Positions 8,046 to 8,798 of a DNA stretch of 17,607 bases are shown piece after piece. The notes under the pieces are model-generated. The model was not told where the DNA came from. It did not search any database and saw only the letters and a program-made list of their open reading frames with translations. The stretch is taken from IMG/VR virus record IMGVR_UViG_3300035682_001995. One strand, given 5' to 3'. Numbering within the stretch: the first letter of the stretch is position 1; each line of letters begins with the position of its first letter. The DNA comes from a virus. Position numbers and translations under genes: made by a program.

Positions 8046-8648
8046 CTATGTGTTGGACATTGCGTCAACAACAATCCGCTTGACAACCTTGGCCAAACCA
8101 GGATTTACAATCAGGGCATGTGGCATGATGTTGTGACGGATATGGTTGCGCATGAACCTGGTGTCCATGTTGCTGGGATCACCCCACCAAGGCACCTGAT
8201 TCTTCTCACACCAACTCTGCAACTGACTCTTGGTGGTTGTGAGAAAGGGTCTCACAATATTACCATTTTGATAGGCAATGGTGTGATGTTTGCCATGCAG
8301 GCAATTGAACAAGTAGGTTTCCATGCAGTCATCCAGGTGATGAGCTGTGACCACAGTGCCTGGCAACTGGTGGAACCAGGAAATTCTCTGGTTGCGCCAA
8401 AATTCTTCCTGGCTTTCATGCTTGGGTTTGTTGGCTTCCAGCTTGCCCAGCAACAAGGGAATATCCCGCCTGGCACAATAGGCTGTGAGATTTTGTTCAC
8501 ACATGTGCCCATAGAAAGTTTGATGATTGAAGTAGACAACTGTGACATCATGGCGCCTCTTGAGGAAATCCAAGGCTGCCATACTGTCTACGCCACCAGA
8601 ACATGCCACATACAACCTTGGCGGCAGTGGTGCAACAATTTTGATCAT
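8046..8648 (-). CDS. tilS: tRNA(Ile)-lysidine synthetase (TilS) N-terminal PP-loop catalytic domain only (200 aa). The C-terminal tRNA-binding domains are absent.
   Basis: Carries the SGGVDS PP-loop and VVTAHHLDDCMETYLFNCLHG (TilS motif HHxDDxxET). The segment IVRPFLTTTKSQLQSWCEKNQVPWWGDPSNMDTRFMRNHIR aligns with E. coli TilS [41 protein letters not shown]. No SD of its own. The ATG directly follows TGA-TAG of the upstream small ORF. Confidence 0.8.
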   Translation of the reverse strand: MIKIVAPLPPRLYVACSGGVDSMAALDFLKRRHDVTVVYFNHQTFYGHMCEQNLTAYCARRDIPLLLGKLEANKPKHESQEEFWRNQRISWFHQLPGTVVTAHHLDDCMETYLFNCLHGKHHTIAYQNGNIVRPFLTTTKSQLQSWCEKNQVPWWGDPSNMDTRFMRNHIRHNIMPHALIVNPGLAKVVKRIVVDAMSNT

Positions 8649-8651
8649 CTA

Positions 8652-8798
8652 TCAAAATTCCATGTTTTCGATTGCCATGACCCATTTTTGGATATCAATT
8701 TCATAAAACCCTGCACAGTTGACATCCACATGTTGTGCCTGTGCCTGAGATACGCCTGCTGAAAGGATCACAGCAGCTAGAGCCAGAATTTTCTTCAT
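8652..8798 (-). CDS. Small ORF (48 aa) with a bacterial-type signal peptide (MKKILALAAVILSAGVSQA|QAQ...). It is translationally coupled to tilS.
   Basis: Not in the ORF track (shorter than 60 aa). AAGGAA sits 7 nt upstream of the ATG at 8798. It ends TGA-TAG immediately before the TilS ATG, and in the same frame. Confidence 0.35.
   Translation of the reverse strand: MKKILALAAVILSAGVSQAQAQHVDVNCAGFYEIDIQKWVMAIENMEF

What the first reader, a model, noticed from the sequence alone, without database searches (positions are those of the whole stretch)
8046..8798. Catalytic-domain-only TilS, translationally coupled to a signal-peptide mini-ORF
The TilS homologue keeps the PP-loop SGGVDS and the HHLDDCMET motif but is only 200 aa. 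This is roughly the ATP-pyrophosphatase domain, without the C-terminal tRNA-binding domains of bacterial TilS (~430 aa).

It has no SD of its own. Its ATG follows TGA-TAG of a 48-aa ORF (8652..8798) that has a good SD and an AXA-type signal peptide (MKKILALAAVILSAGVSQA|QAQ...), in the same frame.

A phage carrying a TilS domain alongside its own tRNAs suggests it manipulates AUA decoding. No tRNA-Ile(CAT) is present in this window.
Basis: partly seen in the sequence, partly recalled or inferred. Interest (0 to 1): 0.55.

Follow-up and report, generated by a model that had tools for sequence, protein, structure and literature searches.

The report
Phage mini-TilS beside a deletion scar
This phage carries a 200-residue, catalytic-domain-only version of the enzyme that lets a tRNA read the AUA isoleucine codon; it belongs to a large virus-only family often encoded right next to its presumed tRNA substrate, while the small "signal-peptide ORF" in front of it is only the scar of a recent 276-base deletion.

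Summary
ORF 8046-8648(-) encodes a 200-aa protein that passes NCBIfam's TilS N-domain model. Its predicted fold matches the Aquifex TilS N-terminal domain (TM 0.86), and it lacks both C-terminal tRNA-binding domains. It is not a fragment. About 1,000 protein clusters and at least 530 viral contigs encode the same ~200-aa form, dN/dS is 0.13-0.31, and cellular TilS is at most 34% identical. A profile of bacterial TilS C-terminal domains finds nothing in the window or in 93 related loci.

In eight lineages, whose TilS-N proteins are only 43-69% identical where compared, a tRNA(CAU) gene lies 20-900 nt downstream. This supports lysidine formation for AUA decoding. The window itself has no tRNA(CAU).

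The 48-aa upstream ORF is not a leader gene. Its 5' part is the start of a 78-aa secreted-protein gene. Its 3' part is the tail of an R2K ATP-grasp gene that abuts TilS-N in relatives. A 99.6-100% identical sibling contig still holds the 276 nt lost here, flanked by 11-nt repeats.

Phage TilS was already annotated in PA5oct and MIJ3. The domain-only architecture and the tRNA pairing appear undescribed. This is a new variant of a known kind, of moderate interest.

The parts
8046..8648 (-). [quoted passage not shown] Its stop is TAG, followed directly by TAA.
   Evidence: TIGR02432 122.5 bits against cutoff 93.6. (profile aligns to A. aeolicus TilS residues 25-228, 4.9e-30). (AF2 pLDDT 96; Foldseek TM 0.86 to 2e21/2e89). 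(dN/dS 0.13-0.31).
8652..8798 (-). 48-aa chimeric ORF, a deletion scar. It joins the signal-peptide start of a 78-aa secreted-protein gene to the last ~22 codons of an R2K ATP-grasp gene.
8711..8721 (-). 11-nt microhomology CAACTGTGCAG at the deletion junction. The sibling contig L172 has two copies of it, flanking the 276 nt missing here.
   Evidence: L172 1-114 = window 8608-8721; L172 391-1357 = window 8711-9677. (repeats at positions 241-251 and 528-538 of the compared L172 segment).
8652..8721 (-). Remnant 3' end of the R2K ATP-grasp gene (NCAGFYEIDIQKWVMAIENMEF*). It carries the conserved GGAA and the stop-start junction in front of TilS-N.
   Evidence: 95.7% identity to the last 23 aa of the L005 R2K protein. 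(tail conserved even where the ORF is broken, as in L002). (L005 R2K = phrog_7313).
8819..8837 (-). GC-rich hairpin GGGGCAAA-TCG-TTTGCCCC between orf245 and the SD of the chimeric ORF. On the gene strand it has no T-run.
8880..9617 (-). orf245, a conserved hypothetical gene upstream. It is syntenic in L002/L004 (97% identity), L008 (40%) and L005 (32%). It is not an R2K protein.
9848..9876 (-). Sigma-70-like promoter match TTGACA-17-TATATT (11 of 12) that could drive orf245, the chimeric ORF and TilS-N.
   Evidence: This is a consensus match only. The total number of promoter-like sites in the region did not exceed the shuffled expectation.
9884..11287 (-). Homospermidine synthase homologue. 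It is syntenic with TilS-N in this subclade (window, L005, L008, L010, L026).
   Evidence: Sacchrp_dh domains. (PDB 2ph5, 5.3e-138)..
11966..12043 (-). tRNA-Arg(TCT).
14589..14663 (-). tRNA-Gln(TTG).
14679..14813 (-). Class II tRNA-Leu(CAA)-like gene with a ~50-nt structured insertion in the anticodon loop.
   Evidence: ARAGORN missed it.
5516..8005 (-). Major-vault-protein-like gene directly downstream of TilS-N, with a strong SD (AAGGAG). Some relatives have a tRNA(CAU) immediately downstream of TilS-N instead.
   Evidence: MVP_shoulder 3.5e-19, Vault_3..

Best explanation
The gene encodes a minimal, virus-specific tRNA(Ile)-lysidine synthetase, here called TilS-N.

**Proposed mechanism (inferred).** The PP-loop domain binds ATP and adenylates C2 of the wobble cytidine C34 of a CAU-anticodon tRNA(Ile2). 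The epsilon-amine of lysine then displaces AMP to give lysidine. This switches the tRNA from Met/AUG to Ile/AUA. The phage thereby raises AUA-decoding capacity for its own messages.

**Consequence of the missing domains (inferred).** Without CTD1 and CTD2, the enzyme can contact only the anticodon arm. It would therefore not depend on the acceptor-stem identity rules of any particular host TilS. That suits a portable enzyme paired with phage tRNAs whose acceptor stems vary widely.

**In this phage.** The substrate is either a phage tRNA(CAU) outside the 17.6-kb window or the host's tRNA(Ile2).

**The upstream 48-aa ORF.** It is a by-product of a recent deletion. At most it supplies ribosomes by termination-reinitiation.

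**Shown:**
- homology, fold and conserved catalytic motifs
- absence of the C-terminal domains
- family size, virus restriction and purifying selection
- tRNA(CAU) adjacency in relatives
- the origin of the mini-ORF

**Inferred:**
- catalytic activity, lysine as the nucleophile, the identity of the tRNA, and the benefit to the phage
For: **Identity.**
- TIGR02432 lysidine_TilS_N scores 122.5 bits against a cutoff of 93.6. TtcA, LarE and MnmA have E >= 1e-3.
- The family profile aligns to the whole N-terminal domain of the three solved TilS proteins (1wy5 4.9e-30, 1ni5, 3a2k). TtuA reaches only 7e-4.
- The AF2 model has pLDDT 96. Its best Foldseek hits are all TilS, with TM 0.86.
- The TilS motifs SGGxDS, S.EE.WR..R, HHLDD..ET, RPF and D.SN....RN.IR are invariant across 32-40 family members.

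**A real short family, not a fragment.**
- 991 protein clusters hit. The top 120 are 177-256 aa, nearly all ~200.
- At least 530 IMG/VR contigs, up to 524 kb, encode a relative.
- Among 185,579 cellular species genomes, only two contigs carry a relative of at least 44% identity, and both look viral. The rest are at most 34% identical and are ordinary TilS of 296-347 or 416-476 aa.
- dN/dS is 0.13 and 0.31.

**No C-terminal domain in trans.** An HMM of CTD1+CTD2 from 59 bacterial TilS has a best E of 4.7 over six-frame translations of the window plus 93 loci. The positive control was 20/20.

**Link to the substrate.**
- tRNA(CAT) lies 20-60 nt downstream in L010-14, L012, L020, L026 and L082.
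- It lies 340-550 nt downstream in L092 and L093, and ~900 nt downstream behind an inserted HNH gene in L005.
- TilS-N proteins of the seven lineages compared (L005 was not included) share only 43-69% identity.
- In every lineage with a tRNA within 1 kb downstream, the nearest one is CAT. In L020, L082 and L093 it is the only tRNA gene in the flanks, although L020 and L082 also carry a tmRNA.
- None of the class I CAT tRNAs has initiator features (my reading of the sequences).
- In two megaphages TilS-N sits among tRNA arrays. PA5oct has three CAT tRNAs, and two of them carry the anticodon arm of E. coli tRNA-Ile2.

**Demand for AUA decoding.**
- AUA is 7-26 per 1000 codons in TilS-N phage loci and 61 per 1000 in the PA5oct region.
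- TilS of a high-GC host, Burkholderia cenocepacia, is about 1000-fold less efficient than E. coli TilS (PMC12514573).
Against: - No tRNA(CAT) occurs in this window, or in the visible flanks of its closest relatives L002 and L008.
- Most loci of the largest clade (L015-L089) have no tRNA within +-10 kb. There the gene lies next to a family B DNA polymerase.
- The TilS-adjacent CAT tRNAs could not be assigned to Ile2 rather than elongator Met by sequence.
- No natural or engineered N-domain-only TilS has been shown to be active. Deleting CTD2 alone already reduces activity strongly (PMC11947777).
- The phage family lacks 4 residues of the conserved bacterial 'rGtg..GL.g' loop and the bacterial 'LR' motif after strand 2. 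I could not map these differences to function.
- There are no expression or biochemical data.
Confidence: 0.62

Rival explanations
1. TilS-N is catalytic but needs a partner for tRNA binding or discrimination. The partner could be an unrelated phage RNA-binding protein. It could also be host TilS, through heterodimerisation of the N-terminal domains.
For: - All characterised TilS enzymes use at least one appended domain (PMC11947777, PMC12514573).
- A delta-CTD2 enzyme is weak (PMC11947777).
- TilS-N keeps the whole N-terminal domain, including the start of the linker helix.
Against: - No homologue of CTD1 or CTD2 is found anywhere in the window or in 93 loci.
- No neighbour gene is conserved across the different clades. 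The neighbours are R2K/HSS in one subclade, an 88-aa ORF and DNA polymerase in another, and small hypothetical ORFs in PA5oct.
- R2K decays repeatedly while TilS-N stays intact.
Confidence: 0.12
2. TilS-N makes a different C34 adduct. It could use a polyamine or another amine instead of lysine. It could also start a pathway in which the neighbouring homospermidine synthase and R2K ATP-grasp ligase elaborate lysidine.
For: - The gene order HSS - R2K - TilS-N - tRNA(CAU), with abutting stop and start, is conserved in L010-14. L026 has HSS - TilS-N - tRNA(CAU).
- HSS is intact next to TilS-N in the window.
- A saccharopine-dehydrogenase-like fragment sits in the PA5oct tRNA region.
- TilS accepts lysine analogues in vitro (PMC11938285).
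- The phage family differs from bacterial TilS in two conserved loops.
Against: - HSS and R2K linkage is confined to one subclade: 10 and 13 of the 90 sequences searched (89 loci plus the window).
- R2K is destroyed in the window, L172, L002-4 and L008/9, and is absent in L026, while TilS-N remains under purifying selection.
- The linkage may simply be inherited synteny.
Confidence: 0.07
3. The substrate is not tRNA(Ile2). One option is cytosines in phage DNA or in another RNA. Another is indiscriminate lysidinylation of host tRNA-Met/fMet as a host shut-off device.
For: - In the largest clade the gene lies in a replication module (SNase-like nuclease, family B DNA polymerase) with no tRNA nearby.
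- An enzyme that reads only the anticodon arm would have no obvious means of rejecting tRNA-Met.
Against: - The specific and repeated adjacency to CAT-anticodon tRNA genes.
- Placement inside tRNA arrays, or next to a tmRNA gene, in other lineages.
- All TilS-specific motifs are retained.
- No PP-loop enzyme of this family is known to act on DNA (background knowledge).
Confidence: 0.08
4. The gene is a non-functional remnant or a non-catalytic decoy that binds or blocks host TilS or tRNA.
For: It lacks half of a normal TilS. It lies in a region undergoing visible decay, with an R2K remnant and homing endonucleases.
Against: - 34 invariant positions, including the whole ATP and catalytic motif set, across about 50% sequence divergence.
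- dN/dS of 0.13-0.31.
- A constant ~200-aa length across hundreds of clusters.
- A confident, complete domain fold.
Confidence: 0.03

Closest known systems
Bacterial type II TilS (e.g. Aquifex aeolicus TilS, PDB 1wy5/2e21/2e89; N-terminal domain + CTD1, ~300-350 aa)
   Same: Same catalytic N-terminal domain: the PP-loop ATP-pyrophosphatase fold plus the TilS-specific helical subdomain. Same motifs. Best structural match, TM 0.86 at 23-24% identity. Like type II, it lacks CTD2 and so cannot read the acceptor stem.
   Different: It also lacks CTD1 and ends about 15 residues into the linker helix. It is shorter in two loops that are conserved in bacterial TilS. It is virus-restricted and at most 34% identical to cellular TilS.
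Bacterial type I TilS (E. coli MesJ/TilS 1ni5; G. kaustophilus 3a2k; N-terminal domain + CTD1 + CTD2, 416-476 aa)
   Same: Homologous catalytic domain. The profile aligns to E. coli residues 13-204 and G. kaustophilus residues 20-222.
   Different: There is no CTD1 or CTD2. It scores 56 bits against the full-length equivalog model NF007942, whose cutoff is 606.
'tRNA(Ile)-lysidine synthetase' of Pseudomonas jumbo phages PA5oct/MIJ3 (203 aa; PMC6892783)
   Same: Same short family: 43% identity over 97% of the length, with the same motifs. The phage also encodes CAT-anticodon tRNAs.
   Different: It comes from a different phage lineage and gene neighbourhood. The publication reports the gene as a bacterial-like TilS of unknown role. 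The passages retrieved do not note the missing domains or any tRNA linkage.
Phage-encoded tRNA-Ile(CAU) that relies on host TilS (classical T4-type arrangement; background knowledge)
   Same: Same end: supplying AUA decoding for an AUA-richer phage genome.
   Different: Here the phage also brings the modifying enzyme. In several lineages enzyme and tRNA form an adjacent gene pair.
Anticodon-loop-only tRNA wobble modifiers such as TadA (PMC12514573)
   Same: A compact enzyme expected to contact only the anticodon arm.
   Different: Unrelated fold and chemistry. The comparison is one of working mode only.

Membership tests
TilS (tRNA(Ile)-lysidine synthetase, EC 6.3.4.19) | PP-loop SGGxDS ATP-binding motif | tested here: met
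   S17GGVDS22. S17, G19, D21 and S22 are invariant in the family.
TilS (tRNA(Ile)-lysidine synthetase, EC 6.3.4.19) | TilS-type N-terminal domain (NCBIfam TIGR02432 above its trusted cutoff), as distinct from other PP-loop families | tested here: met
   122.5 bits against cutoff 93.6. TtcA, LarE and MnmA are all far below their cutoffs. The PHROG QueC-like hit is only 1.3e-4.
TilS (tRNA(Ile)-lysidine synthetase, EC 6.3.4.19) | Fold of the catalytic domain, including the TilS-specific helical subdomain (D.SN....RN.IR) | tested here: met
   AF2 pLDDT 96. Foldseek top five hits are TilS, TM 0.79-0.87. D157, N160, R167, N168 and R171 are invariant.
TilS (tRNA(Ile)-lysidine synthetase, EC 6.3.4.19) | CTD1 (substrate-binding domain contacting the anticodon stem and elbow), present in all described TilS types | tested here: not met
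   The protein ends at residue 200. There is no Pfam hit beyond PF01171. The CTD HMM finds nothing in cis or in trans.
TilS (tRNA(Ile)-lysidine synthetase, EC 6.3.4.19) | CTD2 (acceptor-stem reader; type I only) | tested here: not met
   The full-length equivalog NF007942 scores 56.3 bits against cutoff 606.
TilS (tRNA(Ile)-lysidine synthetase, EC 6.3.4.19) | A cognate tRNA(CAU) substrate encoded in the same genome | tested here: inconclusive
   None in the 17.6-kb window. A tRNA(CAU) lies immediately downstream in eight related lineages. Ile2 versus elongator Met could not be resolved.
TilS (tRNA(Ile)-lysidine synthetase, EC 6.3.4.19) | ATP- and lysine-dependent formation of lysidine at C34 | not testable with these tools
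   This needs an enzyme assay and LC-MS.
Other PP-loop tRNA/cofactor enzymes (TtcA, TtuA, MnmA, LarE, QueC) | A family-specific model above cutoff | tested here: not met
   TtcA 18 bits (cutoff 272), LarE 15.5 (150), MnmA 11.4 (284). TtuA appears only as a second-tier fold match at 17-19% identity.
Translationally coupled leader or upstream-ORF arrangement | The upstream ORF is conserved with the downstream gene in relatives | tested here: not met
   - The 48-aa ORF exists only in the window.
- Sibling L172 has the intact 78-aa gene plus an R2K remnant.
- L002 has in-frame stops 39 nt upstream of TilS-N.
- L005, L010 and L090 have an R2K gene there instead.
R2K ATP-grasp (PF14243/PF18299; phrog_7313), for the 3' half of the mini-ORF | A complete ATP-grasp catalytic module | tested here: not met
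   Only the last 23 residues remain, 95.7% identical to L005 R2K residues 245-267.

The most novel reading that the evidence does not exclude
The minimal TilS may not be a plain copy of the host function. It may be a specificity-relaxed C34-modifying enzyme that has co-evolved with non-canonical phage tRNA(CAU) species.

In the window's own subclade, the partner tRNAs have a long variable arm (class II body, A73) in L026 and L005. The L005 tRNA also carries a 46-nt minihelix-like insertion directly after C34.

Together with the linked homospermidine synthase and R2K ATP-grasp ligase, the enzyme might install a new lysidine-like or polyamine-bearing wobble base. It might also redirect AUA/AUG decoding during infection, through altered tRNA identity or inactivation of host tRNA-Met.
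Probability: 0.1. Interest if true: 0.85.

Novelty: new variant of a known kind. Interest (0 to 1): 0.5.

Why it matters
Recent TilS papers (PMC11947777, PMC12514573) state that every TilS has at least one appended C-terminal domain. They also hold that these domains solve the enzyme's special problem, which is telling tRNA(Ile2) from tRNA(Met) when both carry a CAU anticodon.

A large, conserved, virus-only family with the catalytic domain alone is a natural experiment on that question. In several lineages its gene sits right next to a tRNA(CAU) gene. Either the catalytic domain can find and discriminate its substrate unaided, or the phage tolerates or exploits loss of discrimination.

A cultivable system exists in PA5oct and MIJ3 on Pseudomonas aeruginosa. 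The enzyme is small and models confidently, so the question can be tested directly. A portable 200-aa lysidine synthetase with its own tRNA would also be useful for codon reassignment work.

The mini-ORF result is a caution. An apparently designed uORF-gene junction can be a very recent deletion scar.

Tried and rejected
- **blastn of the region against phage genomes.** No match. The exact 40-mer is absent from IMG/VR. The metagenome scan gave only the 1.36-kb sibling contig L172. The rest of this phage's genome, and any tRNA(CAU) in it, could therefore not be examined.
- **Classifying the TilS-adjacent CAT tRNAs as Ile2 or Met.**
  - GenBank annotations mostly say 'Met'. One record says 'tRNA-Ile2(CAT)' for a 79-80% identical tRNA.
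  - Identity to the verified E. coli ileX and metT genes does not separate the two classes.
  - E. coli IleRS/TilS identity pairs (C4:G69, C29:G41) are present in some of these tRNAs and absent in others (my reading).
  - The result is inconclusive.
- **PHROG 'Cor superinfection exclusion' hit of the mini-ORF** (E 0.0057). Rejected, because the parental 78-aa protein has no such hit.
- **orf245 as a diverged R2K ATP-grasp protein.** Rejected, because it is a separate conserved gene that coexists with R2K in L005.
- **My guess that the 517-aa neighbour in the large clade is TGT/DpdA-like.** Not supported by Pfam, so dropped.
- **NCBIfam for the neighbouring genes.** No hits.
- **The 2005 PNAS structure paper,** needed to map the lysine-specific loop. 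Not held in the library. The two loop differences found remain uninterpreted.
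Full report
**1. What is in the sequence**

ORF 8046-8648 on the minus strand encodes 200 residues starting MIKIV. SGGVDS occupies residues 17-22 and HHLDDCMET residues 103-111. Three bases upstream of its ATG lies the TGA stop of a 48-codon ORF (8652-8798). That ORF has an AAGGAA Shine-Dalgarno sequence and a textbook n/h/c signal sequence. The junction reads GAA TTT TGA TAG ATG, all in one frame.

The only purine run in front of the TilS start is GGAA at -13..-10. 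ARAGORN finds tRNA-Arg(TCT) and tRNA-Gln(TTG). Rfam adds a third tRNA at 14679-14813. Neither tool finds a CAT-anticodon tRNA.

The window is phage DNA, shown by several features:
- a tail-spike fragment
- HNH and GIY-YIG homing endonucleases
- an endolysin-like hydrolase
- tRNAs

Its GC content is 45%.

**2. Identity of the 200-aa protein**

- Pfam gives PF01171 at 1.7e-30 and nothing else above threshold.
- NCBIfam's TilS N-domain model TIGR02432 scores 122.5 bits against a trusted cutoff of 93.6. TtcA, LarE and MnmA score 11-18 bits against cutoffs of 150-284.
- A profile of 32 family members aligns to the entire N-terminal domain of the three solved TilS proteins: A. aeolicus residues 25-228 (4.9e-30), E. 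coli 13-204 and G. kaustophilus 20-222. TtuA appears only at 7e-4.
- An AlphaFold model built on 40 homologues has mean pLDDT 96. Its five best PDB matches are all TilS, with TM up to 0.87.
- The model ends about 15 residues into what is the long linker helix in cellular TilS.

**3. A family, not a fragment**

- The protein search returned 991 clusters. The best 120 are 47-95% identical and 177-256 residues long, nearly all close to 200.
- At least 530 IMG/VR viral contigs, some over 300-500 kb, encode a relative.
- The phage collection holds the same short gene in Pseudomonas jumbo phages of the PA5oct/MIJ3 group. There it is 203 aa, 43% identical, and annotated as tRNA(Ile)-lysidine synthetase. 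It also occurs in two 634-642-kb megaphages.
- In one genome per 185,579 cellular species, only two contigs carry a relative of at least 44% identity: a Halobacteriovorax MAG contig and a Pelagibacteraceae single-cell contig. All other hits are at most 34% identical. Those are ordinary TilS genes whose lengths fall into two groups, about 296-347 and 416-476 residues, matching the type II and type I enzymes of the literature.
- Thirty-four positions are invariant across the family, including all TilS signature motifs.
- dN/dS against the two closest relatives is 0.13 and 0.31.

I built an HMM of CTD1+CTD2 from 59 bacterial TilS genes and searched six-frame translations of the window and 93 related loci. 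The best E-value was 4.7, and the positive control was 20/20.

**4. What it probably does**

The strongest functional clue comes from relatives.

| Lineage | Position of tRNA(CAT) relative to TilS-N |
|---|---|
| L010-14 | starts 20-60 nt after the gene |
| L012 | starts 20-60 nt after the gene |
| L020 | starts 20-60 nt after the gene |
| L026 | starts 20-60 nt after the gene |
| L082 | starts 20-60 nt after the gene |
| L092 | 340-550 nt downstream |
| L093 | 340-550 nt downstream |
| L005 | ~900 nt downstream, behind an inserted HNH endonuclease gene; ARAGORN missed this tRNA |

- TilS-N proteins of the seven lineages compared (L005 was not included) are only 43-69% identical to one another.
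- Wherever a tRNA lies within 1 kb downstream, the nearest one is CAT. In three loci it is the only tRNA gene in the flanks, although two of them also carry a tmRNA.
- By my reading, none of the class I CAT tRNAs has the initiator hallmarks, which are a 1:72 mismatch and three G:C pairs at the bottom of the anticodon stem.
- In the two megaphages the gene lies among arrays of 13 and 25 tRNAs, including CAT and TAT anticodons.
- In L020 and L082 a permuted tmRNA gene lies just upstream.
- PA5oct has three CAT tRNAs. One is initiator-like. The other two share a body whose anticodon arm is identical over 16 nt to E. coli tRNA-Ile2, which I verified against annotated E. coli genomes.

AUA makes up 7-26 per 1000 codons in these phage loci and 9.5 per 1000 in the window. 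It reaches 61 per 1000, or 55% of Ile codons, in the PA5oct region examined. TilS of a high-GC host, Burkholderia cenocepacia, is reported to be about 1000-fold less efficient than E. coli TilS (PMC12514573).

The most economical reading is that TilS-N makes lysidine on a CAU tRNA so that the phage can decode AUA. In many lineages the enzyme and its substrate travel as a gene pair. The acceptor stems of the adjacent tRNAs differ widely. An enzyme that reads only the anticodon arm would be independent of host-specific acceptor-stem rules. This last step is inference.

**5. Limits of that reading**

- The window has no tRNA(CAT). Its closest relatives show none in the DNA available.
- Most loci of the largest clade have no tRNA within 10 kb. 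There TilS-N lies two genes upstream of a family B DNA polymerase.
- I could not assign the adjacent tRNAs to Ile2 rather than elongator Met. Overall identity to verified E. coli Ile2 and Met genes, and to a phage tRNA annotated 'tRNA-Ile2(CAT)', does not separate them.
- No N-domain-only TilS has been shown to be active. Removing CTD2 alone leaves only weak activity in the Burkholderia enzyme (PMC11947777).
- Compared with 77 bacterial N-terminal domains, the phage family lacks four residues of the conserved 'rGtg..GL.g' loop and the 'LR' after strand 2. The structure paper needed to interpret this was not available.

**6. The mini-ORF is a deletion scar**

- Its last 22 codons (NCAGFYEIDIQKWVMAIENMEF) are the 3' end of an R2K-clade ATP-grasp gene (PF14243/PF18299, phrog_7313).
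  - This gene is intact and abuts TilS-N, stop directly followed by ATG, in L005/6 and L010-14.
  - It is open to the contig end in the closest relative L090, whose TilS-N is 95% identical.
- Its first 29 codons, together with the SD, the upstream hairpin and the end of orf245, are 100% identical in DNA to the start of a 78-aa secreted-protein gene of L002.
- Metagenome contig L172 is 99.6-100% identical to window 8608-9677 but carries 276 additional bases. These hold the rest of the 78-aa gene and about 50 codons of R2K remnant. They are flanked by two copies of CAACTGTGCAG. The window keeps one copy, at 8711-8721.

The window allele therefore arose by a microhomology-mediated deletion that happens to be in frame.

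R2K has decayed independently elsewhere:
- L002-4 keep 48 C-terminal codons with in-frame stops, beside an HNH gene.
- L008/9 keep 58 N-terminal codons fused to the last nine.
- L026 has none.

TilS-N stays intact in all of these. Its expression therefore does not depend on the mini-ORF. The tight junction is inherited from the R2K to TilS-N boundary. The last ~40 nt of R2K, including GGAA, are conserved even where the ORF is broken. This suggests, as inference, that they serve as the TilS-N initiation region.

**7. Comparison with what is known**

Phage TilS was reported in 2019 for MIJ3/PA5oct as a 'putative lysidine synthase' of unknown role (PMC6892783). The retrieved passages do not mention the missing domains or a link to the phage's 'tRNA-Met' genes.

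The 2025 TilS literature recognises type I (N-terminal domain + CTD1 + CTD2), type II (N-terminal domain + CTD1) and fusion forms. [quoted passage not shown] My literature searches found no description of an N-domain-only family.

I therefore file this as a member of the TilS superfamily by its catalytic domain. It fails the architecture criterion of every described TilS type, which makes it a new variant of a known kind. Its existence as an annotated gene is not new.

**8. Rivals and the novel reading**

| Rival | Weight |
|---|---|
| A partner supplies tRNA binding | 0.12 |
| A different amine, or a pathway with the neighbouring homospermidine synthase (PDB 2ph5, 5e-138) and R2K ligase | 0.07 |
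| A non-tRNA(Ile2) substrate, or host shut-off through tRNA-Met | 0.08 |
| A decaying or decoy gene | 0.03 |

The HSS - R2K - TilS-N - tRNA(CAU) order in L010-14 is striking, and TilS is known to accept lysine analogues (PMC11938285). However, the linkage is confined to one subclade and R2K is repeatedly lost.

The partner tRNAs in the window's own subclade are odd. They have a class II body, and in L005 a 46-nt insertion directly after C34. This keeps a more exotic decoding role open, at roughly 10%.

**9. Verdict**

The TilS-N part is of moderate interest, because it offers a directly testable challenge to how TilS discriminates its substrate. The mini-ORF part is explained and ordinary. Overall interest is 0.5.

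Noticed in passing
window 14679-14813 (-); also L005 11494-11621, L008 5800-5920 and 2449-2573, L010 5398-5518, L026 3135-3259: These tRNA genes carry ~46-53-nt structured insertions in the anticodon loop. Rfam RF00005 finds them (41-45 bits) but ARAGORN misses them. The window copy is a class II tRNA-Leu(CAA). In the relatives, the inserts look like tRNA 'minihelices': an outer stem plus a T-arm-like hairpin GG-TTCGA[AG]T-CC. They are far too short for group I introns. How they are removed is unknown.
   Followed up: partly
L026 10034-10121 and L005 11494-11621: In the window's subclade, the CAT-anticodon tRNAs next to TilS-N have a long variable arm (class II body) and A73. This is unusual for Met or Ile tRNAs. 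The L005 copy is interrupted directly after C34, the base that TilS modifies.
   Followed up: partly
window 5516-8005 (-): An 829-aa major-vault-protein-like gene (MVP_shoulder 3.5e-19, Vault_3) lies directly downstream of TilS-N. In the phage collection it has relatives only in three 462-735-kb megaphage records (37% identity). It is absent from all related loci except L090.
   Followed up: partly
window 9884-11287 (-): A phage-encoded homospermidine synthase (5e-138 to PDB 2ph5). It is syntenic with TilS-N in this subclade. A 68-aa 'saccharopine dehydrogenase-like' fragment also sits in the PA5oct tRNA cluster (L091 6887-7093).
   Followed up: partly
L005 15935-16009, L010 12466-12539, L026 11882-11957: Relatives encode a suppressor tRNA with anticodon CTA, which suggests that TAG is read through or recoded in this phage group. 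In the window, 6 of 16 ORFs examined end in TAG. TilS-N ends TAG-TAA and the chimeric ORF ends TGA-TAG. No suppressor tRNA lies in the window itself.
   Followed up: no
L091 (PA5oct) 5559-5632 and 6040-6113: Two of PA5oct's three 'tRNA-Met' genes have identical bodies, with an anticodon arm identical to E. coli tRNA-Ile2. Their acceptor stems are completely different (CCCTCGG and GGGACTT). The third is initiator-like.
   Followed up: partly
L020 8161-8835 and L082 9125-9484: Permuted, alphaproteobacterial-type tmRNA genes lie just upstream of TilS-N in two phage lineages (Rfam RF04321, 102-103 bits). This hints at alphaproteobacterial hosts and at a translation-related gene neighbourhood.
   Followed up: no
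L002 5310-5506: A group I intron hit (RF00028, 54.5 bits against gathering score 50) lies next to the tRNA-Leu/Gln pair of the 89%-identical relative.
   Followed up: no
window 4623-5195 (+) and 12173-13015 (+); L002 7241-8149; L005 10590-11354: HNH and GIY-YIG homing endonuclease genes are scattered through this region in the window and its relatives. They sit at the points where synteny breaks: next to the R2K remnant in L002, and between TilS-N and its tRNA in L005. The TilS-N gene itself looks mosaic. Its differences from L090 cluster in the 3' third, and its differences from L002 in the 5' part.
   Followed up: partly
L002 74-144 and 154-224; L008 776-846 and 856-926 (-): These are pairs of tRNA-like genes with atypical T arms, lacking the TTCRA consensus. 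Their Rfam scores are low to moderate (33-46 bits). One is called Thr(GGT) by ARAGORN.
   Followed up: no
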